Positions 1-27,770 of a stretch of DNA of 30,823 nucleotides are shown here, one piece after another. Position numbers and translations under genes: made by a program. A model generated the notes under the pieces. The model was not told the origin of the DNA, did no database searches, and saw only the letters and a list, made by a program, of their open reading frames with translations. This DNA is from Campylobacteraceae bacterium (GTDB lineage: Bacteria; Campylobacterota; Campylobacteria; Campylobacterales; Campylobacteraceae), in contig JAISAU010000015.1 of NCBI GenBank assembly GCA_031266555.1, forward strand, positions 1 through 30,823, given 5' to 3'. The stretch's first letter is position 1, and every line of letters starts with the position of its first letter.

Positions 1-175
1 CGCTAACGCTCCTCGCAATGACGAAAATTTTTCAAACTTATATATTCAATTCCTACATGTAAGACATTTTCACACTTATAGTTTGCTATGCAAACTTCGT
101 TTGCTCGCAATGACGAAATTACAATTCTTTGTCGTTATGAACTAAACGTGGCAATCCACTTTTTCATCATTGTGA
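1..175. repeat. Two degenerate, oppositely oriented copies of a ~35-nt box with core CTCGCAATGACG / CGTCATTGCGAG, plus a TACATGTAA motif at 54-62. The window starts inside the first copy.
   Basis: cgctaacgctcctcgcaatgacg (1-23) matches the box at 1650-1683 and 1812-1845. gtcgttatgaactaaacgtggcaatcc (~132-160) matches the inverted copy gtcattgcgagcgaagcgcggcaatcc at 1697-1730. Confidence 0.5.
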
Positions 176-259: not shown

Positions 260-350
260 TGTAAAGCTTGGATTGCTTCGTCGCTAATGCTTCAAGCTCA
301 TGACGGAAAGAGCGGAGCGACTATACGCCGCTCCTGTCGCTCTATCTGTT
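260..350 (-). repeat. 3' flank module of paralog copy 1: a TATATGTAAAG motif, a diverged GGATTGCTTCGTCGCTAA box, and a GC-rich hairpin (AGAGC..GGAGCGG-N9-CCGCTCC..GCTCT) directly after the stop codon. It may act as a terminator.
   Basis: The same module recurs at 1801-1899 after copy 2 and as a hairpin-only version at 3815-3872 after copy 3. The stem complementarity is visible in the sequence; the downstream U-tract is weak. Confidence 0.5.
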
Positions 351-351
351 T

Positions 352-1218
352 TCACACATAGCTGCTAACCACAAATGTTAAGCCATTTATATATGCTTTA
401 CCATCGCCAGTACCATCGTTACCTATTACATTTATAGTAACTCCTTGCGGCATCTCTTGATTGCCATAGTGAAGATAAGTAATAAATACGCGAGTTATTT
501 CCGTGCCGTTTATATCTACTACAGGAGGGTAAAACATTGCTCCAGATTTAAAATCTTTATTAGATTTTTGCATTATAGTGGTATATTGTATGCCATTTAT
601 GGAATATAAGACGTTAATTATACCGTATCCGCTCCAATTGGGCACTGAAGGTGTTAATTTATAGCTAAAATTTATAGAGCTATTAATATCAACGGTATAA
701 TTTTCTAATGTAAATAAGTCTGCAGCTTTTATAGTTTTTTTAAATAGCGTAATCAACATCCGACAAGTTCCCATAGGATCATCTTCTGGTGTAAGACTAT
801 AATATTGCAACGAACCTCCATTATTTTTGCCTGTAAGAGATTGCAAAAAAGAGCTTGAAAATATTTGCTCCATTACTTGCTTTCCGCCGTTTCTATTATT
901 ATCAACAAAATCCAAAGCATGCGCCAAGGTTTGCCCTGCAGTACCTACAAACACAGCTGCATAATTATTGTTTATATCGTAAGGATCATCTGTATCTGTT
1001 CTTATCTCAAACATGATATTGACATAAACATAATCGAACATACTCCAGTCTATATCTGTCAAATCAGGATTCATATTTTGCTCAAGCTCTAATATAACCT
1101 CGTTAAGAGGTAATTCCTCGCCATCTAATTCAACCTCCCTGAACATATTATTGATTATTGTGTAATCCTCAATAAGCTTTTCAAAACTCATCGTACCGTC
1201 ACAACATAAATTTCTCAT
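352..1218 (-). CDS. Paralog 1 of a tandem three-member family of unknown function. It has conserved N- and C-termini, a variable core and no signal peptide.
   Basis: 288-aa ORF. Shares MRNLCC[DN]GTMSFEKLIE[DN]Y, HALDF[VI]DNNRNGGKQVM, ITLFKK, NYTVDINSS, PP[VI]VDINGTEI and the C-terminal NTGDGKAYINGLTF[VI]V..YV blocks with the ORFs at 1900-2760 and 3873-4748. AAGGAG-type RBS (ggagacaagacgATG). Confidence 0.85.
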   Translation of the reverse strand: MRNLCCDGTMSFEKLIEDYTIINNMFREVELDGEELPLNEVILELEQNMNPDLTDIDWSMFDYVYVNIMFEIRTDTDDPYDINNNYAAVFVGTAGQTLAHALDFVDNNRNGGKQVMEQIFSSSFLQSLTGKNNGGSLQYYSLTPEDDPMGTCRMLITLFKKTIKAADLFTLENYTVDINSSINFSYKLTPSVPNWSGYGIINVLYSINGIQYTTIMQKSNKDFKSGAMFYPPVVDINGTEITRVFITYLHYGNQEMPQGVTINVIGNDGTGDGKAYINGLTFVVSSYV

Positions 1219-1563
1219 CGTCTTGTCTCCTTGTTATTTATAAATACATTAGGCTTAGCTTGTTATAGCATTTACCGCCACTTACCGACATCGTTTTATT
1301 TATCTTGCTTTGTTTTTTATGTAGGATTTGACAAAGTTTCAGATAATCCGACACTCTCGTTGGCTTGCCGAGTTGTGAGTTATTTGTTTATTGTAAAAGT
1401 TATGTTGTTTTATCCAATGTATTTGTACCTCCGAGACTAAGGTTAAGAGATTTATAACTCTTTTTTTACATTATATTTATAGGATACTCTTTAATTTCTT
1501 AAAATACTCTTTTGTTTTTATTGGCTTATTTTGTAAATGAATGCAAAAATATGTTACATGTAG
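1219..1563 (-). promoter_or_regulatory. Conserved leader/promoter region of paralog 1. It contains a TACATGTAG motif (~1554-1563), a direct repeat ATACTCTT-N13-ATACTCTT (~1484-1515), a -10-like TATAAAT (~1448-1456) and a ~220-nt putative 5' UTR.
   Basis: The same architecture and many identical sequence blocks are found upstream of copies 2 (2761-3146) and 3 (4749-5234). Confidence 0.45.
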
Positions 1564-1624
1564 TACAGCGAATGACGGCAGAGCATAAAATAATTTTTGA
1601 GATATAAAAGTTGTTTATAACATT

Positions 1625-1745
1625 ACACGTAAAGCGTTTTGTACTTCTGGATTGCTTCGTCGCTAACGCTCCTCACAATGACACAATTATTTTTCGTCAT
1701 TGCGAGCGAAGCGCGGCAATCCACTTCTTTGTCACCGTTATATGT
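1625..1745. repeat. Box repeat pair: a direct copy at 1650-1683 and an inverted copy at 1697-1730, flanked by TACACGTAAAG and TATATGTAAGAC motifs.
   Basis: ggattgcttcgtcgctaacgctcctcacaatgac ... gtcattgcgagcgaagcgcggcaatcc together form a ~80-nt imperfect inverted repeat. Confidence 0.55.
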
Positions 1746-1800
1746 AAGACGTAAACTAGGTCCTGAACTATTAGTGCTTTGGTATAAACGCACAAATAAA

Positions 1801-1899
1801 CGTTACATGTAAAGATGGATTGCTTCGTCGTTAATACTCCTCGCAATGACGGAAGGAGCGGAGCGACTGTAACGCCGCTCCTGTTACTCTATCTATATT
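1801..1899 (-). repeat. 3' flank module of paralog copy 2: TTACATGTAAAG, the box, and a GGAGCGG/CCGCTCC hairpin.
   Basis: Near-identical to 260-350. Confidence 0.55.
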
Positions 1900-2760
1900 T
1901 CACACATAGCCGTCAACTACGAACGTTAAGCCATTTATATATGCTTTACCATCGCCAGTATTATTACCATACACAGCTATGTTAATTCCTTGCGGCATTG
2001 CTCGGTCATCATAGCTGTAAGAAATATATACATTGACTATTTCCGTACCATTTATATCTACTACAGGAGGAGTAAATTCTTTTCCACCAGTAAAATCTTT
2101 ACCAGATTTCCTGGCCATAGAAGTATACTGTACATCATTTATAGAAAATAAAACATTAACTATATTATATCCGTTCCACATTGGTACTGAAGGCGTTAAT
2201 TCATAACTAAAATTTGCAGAACTATTAATATCAACAGTATAATTTCCTACTGGAAATACATCCATAGCATTAATAGGTTTTTTGAACAGTGTTATTGCCA
2301 TAAAGCAATCTCCCGTCGGGTTACTTTCCGGCGAAAAACTATAGTATCTTATTGTGCTACCGCTTTTATTTGCAAGAGCTTGCAAAAAACTGCTTGAATA
2401 GACATTGCTCATCACTTGTTTACCACCATTTCTATTGTTGTCTATAAAGTCAAGTGCGTGACTAAGAATAAAACTTGCATGTGTAGTGGCAACTAATAAA
2501 ACAGCATAATTATCGTCTATATTATAAGATTCGTCTACACTACTCCTAATCCCAATGGCAGCATTTACATACACATAATCAAACATGGTCCAATTAATGC
2601 TTTGTAAATTAGGGTTGATTTTTTGTTCCATTTCTAAAATATACTCATCGAGGTTTATTTCTTCATCATAGTCAAATATTACTTCTGAGTTTTCGACTAT
2701 AGCGTAATTCTCAATAAGTTTTTCAAAACTCATTGTACCGTTACAACATAAATTTCTCAT
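1900..2760 (-). CDS. Paralog 2 of the three-member family.
   Basis: 286-aa ORF with the conserved termini and internal blocks described for 352-1218. Same RBS context. Confidence 0.85.
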   Translation of the reverse strand: MRNLCCNGTMSFEKLIENYAIVENSEVIFDYDEEINLDEYILEMEQKINPNLQSINWTMFDYVYVNAAIGIRSSVDESYNIDDNYAVLLVATTHASFILSHALDFIDNNRNGGKQVMSNVYSSSFLQALANKSGSTIRYYSFSPESNPTGDCFMAITLFKKPINAMDVFPVGNYTVDINSSANFSYELTPSVPMWNGYNIVNVLFSINDVQYTSMARKSGKDFTGGKEFTPPVVDINGTEIVNVYISYSYDDRAMPQGINIAVYGNNTGDGKAYINGLTFVVDGYV

Positions 2761-3146
2761 TGTCTTGTCTCCTTGATTTTTTTAATAAAAAGATTAGGTT
2801 CCGCATATCACAGCATTCACCGCCACTTACCGACATCGTTCTATTTATCTTAGCTTTGTTTTTTCATAACCGTAGTTTTGATTTAACAAAGTTTCAGATA
2901 ATCCGACACTCTTATTGGCTTGCCAAGTTGTGAGTTATGATTTGTTATAGACATTATGTTGTTTTATGTAACGTATCCGCACCTCCGAGATTGAAGTAAA
3001 GTGATTTATAATATTTTCTTATATTATTTGTAGGATACTGCTTCGTCTCTTAAAATATTCTTTTATTTTTTAGTAGTTTATTTATATTTGTTGTTATTTT
3101 TTTAAACTTTTTCCAGCAAAATTGCAAAAGTTATGCTACATGTAGC
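2761..3146 (-). promoter_or_regulatory. Conserved leader/promoter of paralog 2, with CTACATGTAG at 3137-3146.
   Basis: Alignable by eye to 1219-1563 (ccgccacttaccgacatcgtt, cagataatccgacactct, ttggcttgcc, gttgtgagttat, taggatact, gtaaatga, gttacatgtag). Confidence 0.45.
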
Positions 3147-3266
3147 AAATAAATAGCTAAAAACTTGTCAAATTAGATAGCAAATTAGAGTATGTTTCTT
3201 TTTATGTATTGTATAAGAATTTTTAAGTATTTTTTAAATCAGCGGAGTTACAAAAAACAGATGAAT

Positions 3267-3527
3267 TTAATCATATATATTTTTTCTGTGCGCTATTTCC
3301 AAAACTAAAACAATTAACTTGTCGTCTTGAATTTCGCATATCAAACGATAGTCATTTACACGATAACGCCAAAAACCTTTTAAATTACTTGATAATGCTT
3401 TTCCGCGACTTTTTGGATTTTCAAGAGTTTCTAACTCCTCTTTCCACTTTTTAATCGATTTTTGTACTGAATTGTCAAGCTTTGATAATTGCTTTTCTGC
3501 TTTTGGAGTAAACTCTACGCTCGTCAT
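3267..3527 (-). CDS. relE: RelE/ParE-family toxin.
   Basis: 86 aa. The C-terminal YRLICEI...LIVLVLEIAHRKNIY block is the typical RelE/ParE signature. It overlaps the upstream antitoxin by 4 nt. Confidence 0.8.
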   Translation of the reverse strand: MTSVEFTPKAEKQLSKLDNSVQKSIKKWKEELETLENPKSRGKALSSNLKGFWRYRVNDYRLICEIQDDKLIVLVLEIAHRKNIYD

Positions 3528-3745
3528 AAGCCAAGCTTTTTAAAAACTTCGTTAGCAGATATTGATTTTTCTCCGCTATCTTTGAACTCTTTCAAAGCCT
3601 TTACAGCTCTATAGTAATCTTCCAAATCCTCTAAATGCGTACTTATAGCCTCTTTGATGATATGCGCTTTTGAAACTTTTGCCTCTTTGCTGATAGTTGA
3701 CAATCTATCCTCCATATCTTTTGGCAGTCTTATAGATAAAGGCAT
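3524..3745 (-). CDS. relB: RelB/ParD-type ribbon-helix-helix antitoxin.
   Basis: The N-terminus MPLSIRLPKDMEDRLSTIS is an RHH strand-helix. The ORF track begins 2 codons earlier at a TTG; the ATG at 3745 has an AAGGAG RBS 6 nt upstream. Confidence 0.75.
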   Translation of the reverse strand: MPLSIRLPKDMEDRLSTISKEAKVSKAHIIKEAISTHLEDLEDYYRAVKALKEFKDSGEKSISANEVFKKLGL

Positions 3746-3757
3746 AAACAACTCCTT

Positions 3758-3786
3758 AATAATACAATGTATTCGTCATTATACAC
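3758..3786 (-). promoter_or_regulatory. relBE promoter: TG-TATAAT (-10, complement of 3778-3786) and a 13-bp palindrome AATACAATGTATT (3761-3773) between the -10 and the RBS, probably the operator for autorepression.
   Basis: Read directly on the minus strand as agtgTATAATgacgAATACATTGTATTattAAGGAGttgtttATG. Confidence 0.5.
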
Positions 3787-3814
3787 TATTTTTCGCAAAA
3801 CTGTTGCGGCGTTT

Positions 3815-3872
3815 TGAGCTTTTAATAAAGAACGGAGCGGCTATGACACCGCTCCTGTCGCTCTATCCGTTT
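3815..3872 (-). repeat. 3' flank hairpin of paralog copy 3 (GGAGCGG-N-CCGCTCC). The box part is missing.
   Basis: gaacggagcggctatgacaccgctcctgtcgctctatc matches the hairpin portion of 260-350 and 1801-1899. Confidence 0.5.
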
Positions 3873-4748
3873 CTACACATAGCCGTCAACTATGAATGTT
3901 AAGCCATTTATATATGCTTTACCATCGCCTGTATTGTTACCATTTGTATATATAGTAACTCCTTGCGGCCTCGTTTCATCGCTATAGGGGATGTAAGTAA
4001 TATATATGTGTGTTATTTCTGTACCATTTATATCTACTATAGGTGGGTCAAAACTTTTTTCAGCTTCAAAATATTTACCACCAGACTTATGAACCATAGC
4101 ATCATATTGTATGTTATTTATCAAAAATACGACATTAACTGTATTGTATCCGCTCCACGTTGATACAGAAGGTGTTAATTCGTAACTAAAATGTATGCTA
4201 TCATTAATATCAACGGTATAATTTCCTAACCCGAATATATCCGTAACATTTATAGGTTTTTTGAACAATGTTATTGCGAGCCAGCATCGTCCCATCGGAT
4301 TATTTTCCGGAGCGTAACTATAATATTGCAATGAACCTCCTTCGTTTTTGCTTGTACAAGTTCGCAAAAAAGAGCTTGAAAATATTTGCTCCATCACTTG
4401 CTTGCCACCGTTTCGATTATTGTCAACGAAATCTAGAGCATGCGTTAAACCTGATTCTTCTGCAGTACCCAAAAGAACAGCCGCGTAATTGTCGTTTATG
4501 TCGTAAGGATTATCCATATCAGTTCTTATCTCAAATGCAGTATTTATATAAGCATAATCAAACATACCCCAGTCTACGTCTGTCAAGTTAGGATTTATAT
4601 CTTGCTCAAGTTTTAATATCAGCTCGTTAAGATATATTCCCTCATCATCCAAACTTACATTTTCAGTTAAGCTTCCAATAACAACTATCGCATAATCCTC
4701 AATAAGTTTCTCAAAACTCATTGTACCGTCGCAGCATAAATTTCTCAT
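3873..4748 (-). CDS. Paralog 3 of the three-member family.
   Basis: 291-aa ORF with the conserved termini and blocks described for 352-1218. Confidence 0.85.
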   Translation of the reverse strand: MRNLCCDGTMSFEKLIEDYAIVVIGSLTENVSLDDEGIYLNELILKLEQDINPNLTDVDWGMFDYAYINTAFEIRTDMDNPYDINDNYAAVLLGTAEESGLTHALDFVDNNRNGGKQVMEQIFSSSFLRTCTSKNEGGSLQYYSYAPENNPMGRCWLAITLFKKPINVTDIFGLGNYTVDINDSIHFSYELTPSVSTWSGYNTVNVVFLINNIQYDAMVHKSGGKYFEAEKSFDPPIVDINGTEITHIYITYIPYSDETRPQGVTIYTNGNNTGDGKAYINGLTFIVDGYV

Positions 4749-5234
4749 TGTCTTGTCTCCTTGATTATTTAATAAAATATTGGGTTCCGCTCGTTATAGC
4801 GGTCGCCGACACTTACCGACATCGCTCTATTTATCTTGACTTTGTTTTTTGTGACCACAATTAATTTGCAAAGTCTGACTTAACAAAGTTCCAGATAATC
4901 CGACACTCTCGTTGGCTTGCCAAGTTGTGAGTTATTGTTTGTTGTAGACATTATGTTGTTCTATCCAATCTATTCGCACCTCTGAAATTAAAATAAAATA
5001 ATTTATAATTATTTTTTAATTATCTTATTAATATCAGGGTACTCTTTAGTCTCTTAAAATACTCTTGTATTTTTTTCTTAGCTTATATGGATTAGTTACT
5101 ATTATTTGAAATTTTTCTCGTAAATGAGTGCAAAAAATTAGATTATTAAAATATAAAATGGACTATTGTTTATTTTGGATAGCGTTAACAGAATAGATAT
5201 TTTTTTGAATTTGAGGCAAATATGTTACATGTAG
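4749..5234 (-). promoter_or_regulatory. Conserved leader/promoter of paralog 3, with TTACATGTAG at 5225-5234. It is ~90 nt longer than the other two leaders.
   Basis: Shares the same blocks with the two other leaders. Confidence 0.4.
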
Positions 5235-5268: not shown

Positions 5269-5982
5269 TTAAGTTTGAATTTTCAACACGCTAAAAATAT
5301 TGTCGCAAGATTTTACAATTAATTCTTTAGCATTTATAATGGTATTTTCATACTCTTTAGCAGGTTGAATGTATTCTATATCGCGCCTATATTTGCTCAT
5401 GTCAAATGTTTTTAATGCTTTATATATAGTTTTTATATCGTTTTCGTTTATCGCTTCTTGTTTAAGCAATTTATCGAGTATATTTTTATCGTTGTGAATA
5501 GCAACGGCTATATCGGCTATATCTCTTGATTTATTTTGCGAACCTCTATGTACTATTTTCTTTGCCAATATATCTTCTATACTTTCAATATAAATGTTAT
5601 ACTTGAATAACTCTTTCGATGTGTCTACCAAAGGTTTTGATATAAAATCTTGAGCTACTAAAATATCGACTTTTATGTTATCTTTTGTCATAAATCGTAC
5701 ATGATGGTTTAAATCCTCTATGTAATCGTCTGACTTGAAATATCTGCTTTCTTCGAGCCAAAATCTTGGTCTTATGCAATCAAGCACTTGAGGGTCTGTC
5801 GTAAAAATATCTACATCATAGCTTTTTCTATGTTGAAAATAGTATATGGCAAGAGCTGTACCACCTCCGAAACGCAACAGCGATAAATCCTTGTTCGGCA
5901 AAAGCTCTATGCATTCGTCCAAAAAATGATTTAGAGCGTTTATTTGTTCTTTGTATATATTTTTTATCTCACAAATTTGCAT
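5269..5982 (-). CDS. AbiEii/DUF1814-family nucleotidyltransferase, a putative type IV toxin.
   Basis: 237 aa. The N-terminal RFGGGTALAIYYF...RKSYDVDIFT block matches the AbiEii nucleotidyltransferase fold signature (GGTAL plus acidic DxD). Confidence 0.65.
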   Translation of the reverse strand: MQICEIKNIYKEQINALNHFLDECIELLPNKDLSLLRFGGGTALAIYYFQHRKSYDVDIFTTDPQVLDCIRPRFWLEESRYFKSDDYIEDLNHHVRFMTKDNIKVDILVAQDFISKPLVDTSKELFKYNIYIESIEDILAKKIVHRGSQNKSRDIADIAVAIHNDKNILDKLLKQEAINENDIKTIYKALKTFDMSKYRRDIEYIQPAKEYENTIINAKELIVKSCDNIFSVLKIQT

Positions 5983-6205
5983 ATAATACTTTGCTTATCT
6001 GTTTCATAGGTATATTGTGAATTTTTGCAAACGCTTCTATCTCTTGTGGTAAAGCTTCCTCCCTAATTGTATCAACTATGTATTGCTCAATATTATTTTT
6101 AGTTTTTCCATGCAAAAAAATATCCGCTATTTGCTTGCCCGTTAAATGTTTCTTTTTATCACCAATGGAGCAGTTAGCAGTTGCTATAAGCATTGCGTCT
6201 GTCAT
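5969..6205 (-). CDS. Small protein encoded upstream of, and overlapping, the AbiEii-like gene. It is the putative cognate antitoxin but is much shorter than a canonical AbiEi.
   Basis: 78 aa. It overlaps the downstream gene by 14 nt. A promoter sits immediately upstream. Confidence 0.5.
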   Translation of the reverse strand: MTDAMLIATANCSIGDKKKHLTGKQIADIFLHGKTKNNIEQYIVDTIREEALPQEIEAFAKIHNIPMKQISKVLYANL

Positions 6206-26935: not shown

Positions 26936-27770
26936 ATGCCAAAATCCGGCATCCGCTATCAACGGTATATGGATTTGAATACGATTCAAAATTGGCTTTA
27001 AAATATATCCACGAAATCGCTTCATCCGGCGTTTTGGAGCGGCTTAGTATCAAAAAGGATAGATACGATACTATCCGCTAAGGAAGCGTAATTTTAGGCT
27101 TTTATCAGAAAGCTTAACGCAAAAAAATCATTACAAGCGGCGTTGGTATCAGAGAGGGAGTATATTTAAGCGATATATTGCATTCAAGTGGCACAAAATT
27201 TCCACATAATTTTGACCCTAGCATTGAACTGTTAAAAGATAAATTTAGCACAGACAAAAAGAAAGGCCGATTTTCGCATGCCATATAGAGAAGCTCTTTT
27301 GGGAGTTAAAGCCGTTGCACAAGCTTAATGACTGTTTTTTACGCCCGCTCATAGTAGCGGCAAAACTTGAGAGTATCGGAAGAAATCTTAGTTTTATAAA
27401 GTTCACTTACACAGCGCCTATTTTGTCTTAAATAACTTAAATTACGGATTTACTCACCAAGAAAAGACACTAGTCTCCACAATAATCAAGTTTTACAATA
27501 AAAAAGTCGCGCAAAACGATATATTTTTATATGAGAAACTATTGCCGCTGTATAGGAATTAAATTGGTTGATTTTTATCTTTTCTTTGGTAAAGATTTTC
27601 CAAGACAGAGGTGCGATAAAACCACTCTTTTTTGTGTTTTCCAATGGCTTTTTGAGTATCAAAAGCACAGAGTCTTTATATCTGACAAAAGAGCCGGTGA
27701 AAAAGATATTTAAACCGGAGGTATTCTCTATCGTTATTGATGATAATCAACAGCTTTCAATTCCCAACGG
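26936..27770 (+). pseudogene. Ppx/GppA-family (exopolyphosphatase / pppGpp phosphohydrolase) gene remnant. It is 5'-truncated and broken by stop codons and frameshifts.
   Basis: Translated fragments: ...RYDTIR*, GVGIREGVYLSDIL (the REG motif at the end of the Ppx actin-like domain), EKLFWELKPLHKL..LIVAAKLESIGRNLSF (the HD-domain region, with H-D replaced by E-S), GFTHQEKTLVSTIIKFYNKK. They lie in three different frames. Confidence 0.55.

What the first reader, a model, noticed from the sequence alone, without database searches (positions are those of the whole stretch)
1625..1900. Small box elements arranged as direct and inverted copies, in MITE/REP fashion, flanking the paralog 3' ends (also at 1-350)
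A ~35-nt box GGATTGCTTCGTCGCTAACGCTCCTCGCAATGAC occurs at least seven times in degenerate form (1-23, ~97-120, ~132-160 inverted, 271-305, 1650-1683, 1697-1730 inverted, 1812-1845). Most copies are preceded by a TA(C/T)A(T/C)GTAAAG motif and paired with a GGAGCGG/CCGCTCC hairpin placed right after the paralog stop codons. Paired inverted copies such as 1650-1730 form ~80-nt palindromic units. They could be miniature mobile elements, recombination substrates that drive duplication of the cassette, or terminator/RNA-stability elements.
Basis: seen in the sequence. Interest (0 to 1): 0.5.

Follow-up and report, generated by a model that had tools for sequence, protein, structure and literature searches.

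The report
CGTC-tagged hairpin repeats (Ssn motifs)
The repeated "boxes" are real copies of a small DNA hairpin repeat already known from many bacteria (CGTC-tagged REPs, also called Ssn-related motifs), which a tiny GIY-YIG nuclease binds and cuts in single-stranded DNA; this is an ordinary new occurrence beside tandem copies of an unknown gene.

Summary
Profile HMMs built only from copies in other genomes find seven box copies in the window, all within 1-1852 and none in the other 29 kb. About half are positional duplicates, because the two intergenic regions (1-352 and 1520-1900) were copied together with the paralog cassette.

Each box is a discrete unit: (C/T)GTC-ATTGC-GA-[variable hairpin]-GNR-GCAAT-CCA. 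The inner hairpin covaries.

Tag, stem start and tail match the CGTC-tagged REP superfamily (Di Nocera 2013). That superfamily includes Neisseria dRS3/NTS, the "Ssn-related motifs" that the 94-aa GIY-YIG ssDNA nuclease SsnA binds and cuts (Chenal 2025). In my loci, small GIY-YIG genes are tightly flanked by these arms.

The window has no GIY-YIG gene and no transposase, so activity in this organism is inferred. The published SRM search pattern does not match this subfamily.

Verdict: a new member of a known kind, of modest interest. The strongly over-represented TACATGTA palindrome next to the boxes remains unexplained.

The parts
1..23 (-). Arm (long type), cut off by the contig start. On the minus strand it reads CGTCATTGCGAGGAGCGTTAGCG...
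   Evidence: HMM from foreign arms, E=8.7e-7; sequence.
80..115 (-). Degenerate arm. The head CGTCATTGCGAG is kept; the tail has decayed (AGTTTGC in place of GGATTGC). It is the positional homologue of 1647-1683.
   Evidence: HMM E=1.5e-3 for 100-116; alignment of the two intergenic regions.
130..158 (+). Degenerate arm (TGTCGTTATGA...GTGGCAATCCA). It is the positional homologue of 1695-1723 and forms a decayed inverted pair with 80-115.
   Evidence: HMM E=0.3 for the tail half only; alignment.
269..305 (-). Arm just 3' of the paralog-1 terminator hairpin. The tail half is intact and the head is mutated (CGTCATGAGCTTGAAG).
   Evidence: HMM E=2.2e-5; repeat family D15; alignment with the paralog-2 downstream region.
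309..334 (-). Terminator-like GC hairpin (GGAGCGGCGUAUAGUCGCUCC) directly after the paralog-1 stop codon. It is not part of the repeat family.
352..1218 (-). Paralog 1 (288 aa), a lineage-restricted gene with no Pfam match.
1563..1575 (-). Remnant of an arm head (CAGCGAATGACGG) at the junction between paralog-1 leader and the second intergenic region, directly after TACATGTAG.
   Evidence: Read from the sequence and from alignment A2. Too short for the HMM.
1647..1683 (-). Arm (long type): TGTCATTGTGAG-GA-GC-GTTA-GC-GA-C-GAA-GCAATCCAG. One outer-stem position is mutated (C to T).
   Evidence: HMM E=2.4e-11.
1695..1723 (+). Intact arm (short type): CGTCATTGCGA-GCGAAGC-GCG-GCAATCCA. Identical to a variant found in several unrelated viral contigs.
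   Evidence: HMM E=1e-10.
1647..1723 (.). Inverted dimer of the two arms. The CGTC heads face each other across 11-13 nt, giving a palindromic unit of about 77 nt.
   Evidence: Folds: z -4.6 as RNA and z -5.6 as DNA.
1816..1851 (-). Intact arm (long type) just 3' of the paralog-2 terminator hairpin. Its inner stem GT..AC is a compensatory variant of GC..GC in 1647-1683.
   Evidence: HMM E=5.3e-12.
1860..1881 (-). Terminator-like hairpin after the paralog-2 stop codon.
1900..2760 (-). Paralog 2 (286 aa).
3834..3855 (-). The same terminator hairpin after paralog 3, followed by a T-rich tail and no arm. This is the arm-free state.
1804..1814 (.). TACATGTAAAG palindromic motif 5 nt from the arm tail. 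Equivalents lie at 54-61, 256-263 (TATATGTA), 1624-1631 (TACACGTA), 1739-1746 (TATATGTA) and 1555-1562.

Best explanation
The boxes are copies ("arms") of a small hairpin repeat of the CGTC-tagged REP superfamily, equivalent to the NTS / Ssn-related motifs.

Each arm is a self-contained unit: an unpaired (C/T)GTC tag, a 5-bp outer stem ATTGC/GCAAT, a GA/GNR internal loop, a variable inner mini-hairpin (often GCGAAGC), and a CCA tail.

In characterised members, the hairpin forms in single-stranded DNA. It is bound in one orientation by a ~94-aa single-domain GIY-YIG nuclease (Ssn), which cuts a few nucleotides upstream. Ssn genes are typically flanked by the arms in an IS-like arrangement, which probably explains how the repeats multiply. 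In Neisseria, cutting restricts the integration of transforming ssDNA that carries the repeats.

Shown here:
- The window arms belong to this repeat family.
- The family is cosmopolitan.
- Its inner helix covaries.
- Elsewhere it flanks small GIY-YIG genes.
- In the window the arms sit in the intergenic DNA between tandem paralogs and were duplicated with them.

Inferred:
- The arms are, or were, substrates of a cognate Ssn encoded elsewhere in this genome.
- By analogy with the NTS-gene-NTS arrangement, they influence ssDNA processing and recombination around the paralog cassette.
For: Family match: HMMs trained only on foreign arms hit the window copies at E values from 5e-12 to 9e-7.

Discrete unit: over 542 non-redundant arms, position -1 is C 67% / T 27% and position +1 is A 69%, and the flanks beyond that are random. 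This gives the CGTC/TGTC tag, the AT..AT stem start and the CCA tail that define CGTC REPs (PMC3733652).

The genomes include Bradyrhizobium, sphingomonads, Micavibrio, Rickettsiales, Bacteroidota, Oscillospiraceae, Helicobacter rodentium, Melainabacteria, Planctomycetota, Chloroflexi and Armatimonadota. The window's own variant reached the limit in metagenome contigs of 33-70% GC.

Structure: the arms carry 48 distinct inner stems with 97% Watson-Crick pairs. In the 35-nt class, 6 of 6 inner pairs change on both sides; the covariation score is 0.319 against 0.089 in shuffles, with 0 of 500 shuffles as high.

DNA level rather than RNA level: there is no orientation bias relative to genes, 59 against 61.

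Nuclease link:
- GIY-YIG (PF01541) ORFs of 92-96 aa lie within about 30-100 bp of arms in L310, L204, L342, L294, L241 and L346.
- Starting from the protein instead, 31 of 41 viral loci have a CGTC hairpin within 300 bp, and 23 have one on both sides. Density is 3.58/kb near the gene against 0.17/kb farther away.
- This reproduces the published 71% and 42% (PMC11893778).
- Biochemistry and the transformation phenotype of SsnA/NTS are published. Loop extensions are tolerated, which fits the variable inner hairpin.
- Neisseria dRS3 is CGTC-1, and the NTS contains dRS3.
Against: - The window has no GIY-YIG gene, no Y1 transposase and no other transposase. The rest of the genome could not be searched.
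- The published SRM search pattern gives 0 hits in the window, so this subfamily lies outside that operational definition.
- Single window arms folded with DNA nearest-neighbour parameters are no more stable than shuffles (z -0.4 to +0.9). Support for the structure rests on covariation and on sheared G.A motifs that the energy model ignores.
- Four of the seven window copies are decayed.
- A syntenic 16-kb locus of a related MAG has no arm at all.
- I could not show directly that the flanking GIY-YIG proteins belong to cd10448.
- No experiment has tested an ATTGC-type arm.
Confidence: 0.8

Rival explanations
1. The arms act as RNA elements in the paralog 3' UTRs, as terminators, stabilisers or processing sites.
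For: Arms 269-305 and 1816-1851 lie on the coding strand just after the stop codons. Di Nocera et al. argue that many REPs are transcribed. Across other genomes, single arms between convergent genes outnumber those between divergent genes, 31 to 16.
Against: They lie after a separate terminator-like hairpin and have no U-tract. Sense and antisense orientations are equally frequent in co-directional intergenic regions, 59 against 61. No Rfam family matches. SsnA does not bind RNA.
Confidence: 0.1
2. The arms are classical MITEs, or GTAG-type REPs/REPINs, mobilised by a DDE or Y1 (RAYT) transposase.
For: They are small, palindromic, intergenic and sometimes occur as inverted doublets.
Against: The tag is CGTC, not GTAG. 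No RAYT or IS is present in the window. CGTC REPs were found not to associate with tyrosine transposase genes. The unit is a single hairpin of about 30 nt whose flanks are random beyond two positions, so nothing marks a target-site duplication.
Confidence: 0.04
3. The boxes are only a local duplication relic of this cassette, with no wider family or function.
For: The two intergenic regions are positional homologues, so much of the copy number comes from segmental duplication. No arm lies in the other 29 kb or in the syntenic locus of a related MAG.
Against: The same unit, down to the inner-loop variant, occurs in hundreds of unrelated contigs across phyla. HMMs trained without the window recover the window copies at E as low as 5e-12.
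Confidence: 0.05
4. The arms were the breakpoints or recombination substrates that generated the tandem duplication of the paralog cassette. This is compatible with the best explanation.
For: The leader1|IGR2 junction keeps only the head of an arm (1563-1575) fused to the end of the leader. The contig itself starts inside an arm. Hairpin repeats and an ssDNA nuclease could plausibly promote slippage or breaks; this last point is inference.
Against: It rests on a single junction, which a later deletion explains equally well. Paralog 3 was duplicated without arms. The proteins are only 60-67% identical, so the duplications are old.
Confidence: 0.12

Closest known systems
CGTC-tagged REPs, families CGTC-1 to CGTC-4 (Di Nocera, De Gregorio & Rocco 2013, BMC Genomics 14:522)
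   Same: Both have an unpaired CGTC/TGTC tag, a stem that begins A-T then T-A, a CCA tail, singletons and inverted dimers, and an intergenic position near gene 3' ends. The hosts overlap: Bradyrhizobium, sphingomonads, Micavibrio and Rickettsia, with Sulfurovum also named in that paper among CGTC-positive species.
   Different: The described families have 8-9-bp stems with 4-5-nt loops. Here a 5-bp outer stem is followed by a GA/GNR internal loop and a variable inner hairpin. The paper mentions odd loops only for Bradyrhizobium CGTC-1. The exact family number could not be checked because the figure is not held.
NTS / Ssn-related motifs with the GIY-YIG ssDNA nuclease SsnA (Chenal et al. 2025, Nat Commun 16:2388)
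   Same: Both have the CGTCAT...AATCCAG frame, GTC immediately 5' of the palindrome and C immediately 3' (the positions critical for cutting and binding). Both are directional, cluster around genes, and flank ~94-aa GIY-YIG genes in an IS-like arrangement. The loop tolerates extension.
   Different: The stem sequence differs (ATTGC-GA against ATTCCCGC), so the published degenerate pattern finds none of the window arms. No ssn gene lies in the window. No biochemical test exists for this subfamily. The host is a termite-gut-type Campylobacteraceae MAG (termite-gut origin guessed from the locus-tag style, not checked).
GTAG REPs / REPINs with RAYT (Y1) transposases
   Same: Both are short tagged hairpins recognised as ssDNA, occur as singletons and inverted doublets, and associate with a single small nuclease gene flanked by the repeats.
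   Different: The tag (GTAG) and the enzyme class (HUH-Y1) are different, and no RAYT is present here.
Neisseria dRS3 and Rickettsia RPE-6/RPE-4
   Same: PMC3733652 states that these are CGTC-1/CGTC-4 members, so they belong to the same superfamily.
   Different: Their stems differ. RPEs are often longer and can sit inside genes.
d(GCGAAGC) DNA mini-hairpin
   Same: The commonest inner hairpin of the family, and that of arm 1695-1723, is exactly GCGAAGC. From my own knowledge this is an unusually stable DNA mini-hairpin with a sheared G.A pair.
   Different: This is a structural motif, not a repeat family. Its relevance here is inferred.

Membership tests
CGTC-tagged REP superfamily | Unpaired 5' tag CGTC (variants TGTC, CCTC) | tested here: met
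   CGTC at arms 1695(+), 1851(-), 305(-), 115(-) and 23(-); TGTC at 1683(-) and 130(+). Across the family, position -1 is C 67% / T 27%.
CGTC-tagged REP superfamily | Stem starts with complementary A-T residues at positions 1 and 2 | tested here: met
   ATTGC...GCAAT in all intact arms.
CGTC-tagged REP superfamily | Short unpaired tail fitting CCA | tested here: met
   GCAATCCA in all seven window copies. Across the family, position +1 is A 69%.
CGTC-tagged REP superfamily | Stem of 8-9 bp with a loop of 4-5 nt | tested here: inconclusive
   The window arms have a 5-bp outer stem, a GA/GNR internal loop and an inner hairpin. The paper notes atypical loops in Bradyrhizobium CGTC-1, but its figure is not available.
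CGTC-tagged REP superfamily | Many dispersed copies in the host genome | not testable with these tools
   The window is the entire contig.
Ssn-related motif (SRM/NTS) | Match to the published degenerate pattern HGTCWYN(0-2)YYVSBRHN(0-5)WNVSBRGN(0-2)RNCYNB | tested here: not met
   0 hits in the window. The same pattern does hit 17 of 41 GIY-YIG loci.
Ssn-related motif (SRM/NTS) | GTC immediately 5' of the palindrome and C immediately 3' (positions critical for cleavage and binding) | tested here: met
   Present in all window arms that retain that end. Criterion taken.
Ssn-related motif (SRM/NTS) | Hairpin supported by compensatory change | tested here: met
   Inner helix: 6 of 6 pairs change on both sides, and 0 of 500 shuffles reach the score. 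Window copies show GC..GC against GT..AC. Energy alone is not distinctive for single arms.
Ssn-related motif (SRM/NTS) | Physical association of this arm subfamily with small single-domain GIY-YIG (ssn) genes | tested here: met
   Six arm-first loci and six protein-first loci have ATTGC-type arms beside a 92-96-aa PF01541 gene. Overall, 31 of 41 loci have a CGTC hairpin within 300 bp.
Ssn-related motif (SRM/NTS) | Cognate ssn gene in the same genome | not testable with these tools
   None in the window.
Ssn-related motif (SRM/NTS) | The flanking nuclease belongs to CDD cd10448 | not testable with these tools
   No CDD library is available. Pfam gives GIY-YIG only. The nearest solved structures are UPF0213 proteins 1zg2 and 1ywl.
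Ssn-related motif (SRM/NTS) | Strand-specific ssDNA binding and cleavage upstream of the motif | not testable with these tools
   Needs biochemistry.
GTAG REP / REPIN-RAYT | GTAG tag and an associated Y1 transposase | tested here: not met
   The tag is CGTC. The window has no Y1_Tnp.
Classical MITE | IS-derived terminal inverted repeats with target-site duplication | tested here: not met
   The unit is a single hairpin. Flank positions carry no information beyond two bases.
Rfam RNA families | Score above the gathering threshold | tested here: not met
   Only two tRNAs in the window. Nothing on arm-rich loci.

The most novel reading that the evidence does not exclude
The ATTGC-GA-hairpin arms form a distinct, nearly sequence-invariant specificity class of the Ssn system that published search patterns miss. 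This class spreads horizontally across at least 10 phyla and on phages. In this Campylobacteraceae lineage it forms composite units with the highly over-represented TACATGTA palindrome. Cutting or hairpin formation at the arms generated, and now fences, the tandem array of a lineage-specific gene, analogous to NTS fencing of variable surface genes in Neisseria.
Probability: 0.12. Interest if true: 0.55.

Novelty: new member of a known kind. Interest (0 to 1): 0.3.

Why it matters
The result explains a conspicuous repeat without needing anything new. It links a MAG locus to a repeat/nuclease system whose mechanism was worked out only in 2025.

Three practical points follow:
- The published SRM search pattern misses a very widespread arm subfamily, so surveys based on it undercount Ssn-type repeats.
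- That subfamily carries variable inner hairpins at the loop position, which Ssn is reported to tolerate. This is relevant to using Ssn enzymes as programmable ssDNA cutters.
- The arms are common on viral contigs, which suggests a phage-related role for ssDNA restriction that has not been examined.

For this window, the biological consequence remains an inference: altered recombination or transformation around an unknown paralog family.

Tried and rejected
- Rickettsia palindromic elements were my first guess from memory. I dropped it because the gene content is that of an anaerobic Campylobacterota genome.
- Rfam at gathering and E-value thresholds, on the window and on arm-rich loci, gave no family.
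- Literature searches by DNA strings and by the peptide strings the repeat would encode returned only unrelated primers. A keyword search found the two relevant papers.
- Clustering naive ORFs next to arms was dominated by spurious GC-rich frames. Looking only at ORFs bracketed by arms revealed the GIY-YIG gene.
It returned only unrelated organisms, none with the TACATGTA signature.
- An exact-protein look-up of paralog 2 found nothing on record.
- The syntenic locus of a related MAG has no arms, so no filled-versus-empty junction could be defined.
- My generalised CGTC-hairpin detector (7 outer stem positions, at most 1 mismatch) gave one chance AT-rich hit at 27672-27716 and missed the true arms because of their GA internal loop.
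- NCBIfam gave no family name for the GIY-YIG proteins.
- CRISPR, integron attC and self-cleaving ribozyme readings were considered only by recall. The tandem spacing of about 10 nt fits none of them, and no Rfam ribozyme family matched.
Full report
**What is in the window**

The window is a complete 30,823-nt contig of a metagenome-assembled "Campylobacteraceae bacterium". Its GC content is about 35%. It carries ordinary chromosomal genes: a HemN-like radical SAM enzyme, a CCG/Fe-S protein, DUF2603, OTCase, ALAD, a BcrAD/BadFG activase, RibA, GidB, alanine racemase and others.

At its left end lie three tandem paralogs of a 286-291-aa protein with no Pfam match: 352-1218, 1900-2760 and 3873-4748, all on the minus strand. 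This protein has only four homologues among 5.8 billion proteins, three of them in this window. A ParE/RHH module (3267-3751) and an AbiEii-type module (5269-6205) are interleaved with the paralogs.

**Checking the observation**

The boxes are real.
- The quoted 34-mer matches twice with up to 3 mismatches, against 0 expected.
- The repeat finder groups 269-303, 1648-1682 and 1816-1850, and separately 1-32, 1661-1692 and 1829-1860.
- To avoid circularity, I built two profile HMMs only from copies found in other genomes and ran them on the window.

The HMM hits were:

| Coordinates | E-value | Note |
|---|---|---|
| 1816-1852(-) | 5e-12 | |
| 1647-1683(-) | 2e-11 | |
| 1695-1723(+) | 1e-10 | |
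| 1-24(-) | 9e-7 | cut by the contig start |
| 269-291(-) | 2e-5 | tail half only |
| 100-116(-) | 1.5e-3 | head half only |
| 146-158(+) | 0.3 | |

Nothing else in the remaining 29 kb is significant.

The other parts of the description also hold.
- The inverted pair 1647-1723 folds as one long hairpin, with z -4.6 as RNA and z -5.6 as DNA.
- The GGAGCGG/CCGCTCC stems sit directly after the three stop codons. They are a separate, terminator-like feature, and the third copy has a T-rich tail.

**How many independent copies**

The two intergenic regions, 1-352 and 1520-1900, align end to end at 76% identity. The correspondences are:
- 80-115 with 1647-1683
- 130-158 with 1695-1723
- 269-305 with 1816-1851
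- 1-23 with a short remnant at 1563-1575

The arms were therefore copied with the cassette. There are three or four sites per cassette, not seven insertions. The region downstream of paralog 3 has the terminator hairpin but no arm.

**Anatomy of the unit**

Read on the strand that starts with GTC, each box is: (C/T)GTC ATTGC GA [variable hairpin] G(A/T/C)(A/G) GCAAT CC A(G).

Over 542 non-redundant copies from other genomes, the two bases on each side carry some information (position -1: C 67% / T 27%; position +1: A 69%). Everything beyond them is random. The single arm is therefore the unit, not the inverted pair.

The central part varies in length and sequence but keeps its pairing.
- There are 48 distinct inner stems, and 97% of pairs are Watson-Crick. 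The commonest form is GCGAAGC.
- In the 35-nt length class (26 distinct sequences), all six inner pairs change on both sides. The covariation score is 0.319 against 0.089 in shuffles (0 of 500 as high) and 0.04-0.11 when the partners are slid.
- A second class nests another GA/GA step: G-GA-[stem]-GA-C. The window's long arms are of this kind. Two of them differ by a compensatory change in the inner stem, GC..GC against GT..AC.

One caveat applies. With DNA nearest-neighbour energies, single window arms are no more stable than shuffled sequence. Those energy parameters do not credit sheared G.A pairs.

**Distribution**

The genome hits include Bradyrhizobium, sphingomonads, Micavibrio, Rickettsiales, Legionellales, Bacteroidota, Oscillospiraceae, Helicobacter rodentium, Melainabacteria, Planctomycetota, Chloroflexi, Armatimonadota and Thermodesulfovibrionales.

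Even the window's own inner-loop variant hit the limit in JGI metagenomes, on contigs of 33-70% GC.

Across 240 loci, close pairs of arms are arranged as follows:
- 66 inverted pairs with tails facing each other (spacer mode 20-25 nt)
- 21 tandem direct pairs
- 4 inverted pairs with heads facing each other, which is the arrangement in the window

Single arms in co-directional intergenic regions are sense 59 times and antisense 61 times. Arms between convergent genes outnumber those between divergent genes, 31 to 16. This argues for a DNA-level element rather than a strand-specific RNA.

**What it is**

ORFs bracketed by arms included a 95-aa GIY-YIG protein in L204 and L310 (PF01541).
- tblastn found nine such genes in the 360 arm-selected loci. 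Six have arms within about 30-100 bp.
- Starting from the protein instead, 41 viral loci were recovered. Six have canonical arms nearby.
- Most of the others are flanked by arms of the same architecture with different stems, for example CGTCATTCCCGCGAAAGCGGGAATCCAG.
- With a generalised detector, 31 of 41 loci have a CGTC hairpin within 300 bp and 23 have one on both sides. Density is 3.58/kb near the gene against 0.17/kb farther away.

A keyword search then found the literature.

Di Nocera et al. 2013 define CGTC-tagged REPs by an unpaired CGTC/TGTC tag, stems that start with A-T pairs, and a CCA tail. These repeats occur mostly in Alphaproteobacteria but in five phyla overall. The Neisseria members correspond to dRS3 and some Rickettsia members to RPE-6/RPE-4. 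The authors noted that they "apparently lack a dedicated transposase".

Chenal et al. 2025 made several findings:
- The Neisseria NTS (CGTCATTCCCGCGMAVGCGGGAATCYRG, which contains dRS3) and related "Ssn-related motifs" flank genes for a 94-aa single-domain GIY-YIG protein, SsnA.
- SsnA binds the hairpin only as ssDNA and only in one orientation.
- It cuts a few nucleotides upstream and does not act on dsDNA or RNA.
- It tolerates extension at the loop.
- In N. meningitidis it lowers integration of NTS-bearing transforming DNA.
- The NTS-ssnA-NTS arrangement resembles an insertion sequence.

The window arms share the CGTCAT...AATCCAG frame. They have GTC before the palindrome and C after it, the positions reported as critical.

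**Where the fit is imperfect**

- The published degenerate SRM pattern finds no arm in the window. The stem here is ATTGC followed by a GA internal loop, and the centre is longer than N(0-5).
- The stem and loop dimensions given for CGTC-1 to CGTC-4 are not met literally. I could not see the figure to assign a family number.
- The window has no GIY-YIG gene or transposase, and the rest of the genome is out of reach.
- A syntenic 16-kb locus from a related MAG has one 409-aa paralog and no arms.

The identity of the repeat is therefore well supported. Its activity in this organism is inferred.

**How it most likely works here**

Shown: the arms are members of the CGTC/SRM family, sit between tandem paralogs, and were duplicated with them.

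Inferred from the characterised system:
- When this DNA is single-stranded (during replication, repair or uptake), the arms fold.
- A cognate Ssn, if present, cuts just 5' of the CGTC tag on the strand that carries it.
- Five of the seven arms put that strand on the paralogs' coding strand.

Arms on both sides of paralog 1 resemble the NTS-gene-NTS arrangement that reduces replacement by transformation in Neisseria.

The junction between the paralog-1 leader and the second intergenic region keeps only an arm head (1563-1575), fused to TACATGTAG. The contig also begins inside an arm. Both are compatible with arms acting as break or slippage points, or with assembly breaking at a repeat. One junction proves nothing.

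**Verdict**

The specific identity is a CGTC-tagged REP / Ssn-related motif, a known system. I classify it as a new member of a known kind, of modest interest.

Noticed in passing
window, 20 sites: 54, 1555, 1804, 3137, 5226, 6352, 6380, 6422, 7855, 9697, 16352, 16384, 16419, 17585, 23909, 25660, 25711, 26751, 29462, 30785: The palindrome TACATGTA (usually YTACATGTAR) occurs 20 times against 0.41 expected. Seventeen sites lie outside long ORFs. Two triplet clusters have spacing of about 30-40 bp. The motif marks the 5' boundary of each paralog leader and lies 5-22 nt from arm tails. A related MAG locus has only 4 sites in 16 kb. Nothing bacterial turned up in the literature by string search. 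Its function is unknown.
   Followed up: partly
window 1219-1563, 2761-3145, 4749-5234 (minus strand): The paralogs have 345-485-nt upstream leaders. A 60-nt block in them is 92-93% identical between copies (1325-1384, 2880-2939, 4877-4936). The proteins themselves are only 60-67% identical. The block holds no conserved ORF and has no Rfam hit. It may be a structured leader or a small RNA.
   Followed up: partly
window 352-4748; P0004 / L402 5018-6247: The paralog family is almost an orphan. It has four homologues among 5.8 billion proteins: three in this window and one 409-aa version with an N-terminal extension in a related MAG.
   Followed up: partly
window 3267-3751 and 5269-6205: A ParE/ribbon-helix-helix toxin-antitoxin pair and an AbiEii-type nucleotidyltransferase module are interleaved with the paralog cassettes. 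The related MAG has RelB/YafQ and Abi_C at the equivalent place. This suggests a variable defence or accessory islet next to conserved haem and arginine genes.
   Followed up: no
L040 2670-2857, 5030-5104, 11849-11966, 12665-12782; L056 8305-8492: Viral contigs carry tandem arrays of up to five arms with a period of about 40 nt, and 15 or more arms in 13 kb.
   Followed up: no
L019 (arms at 3337, 4456, 5453, 5874, 6404, 8777, 12712) and L041: On phage-like contigs, arms sit in successive short intergenic gaps. In L019 every arm has the same orientation, antisense to the genes; in L041 most arms are sense to the genes. This hints at a replication-strand or packaging-strand bias.
   Followed up: partly
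method note; window 1647-1851: The published SRM degenerate pattern finds none of the ATTGC-type arms and only 17 of 41 GIY-YIG loci, against 31 of 41 with a looser hairpin detector. The 2025 Ssn paper does not mention the 2013 CGTC-REP classification in its text.
   Followed up: yes
window 1 and 30690-30823: The contig begins inside an arm, which fits an assembly break at a repeat. Near the other end there are weak head-like fragments (CGCGATGAC at 30698, CACAATGAC at 30749) that the HMMs do not support.
   Followed up: partly
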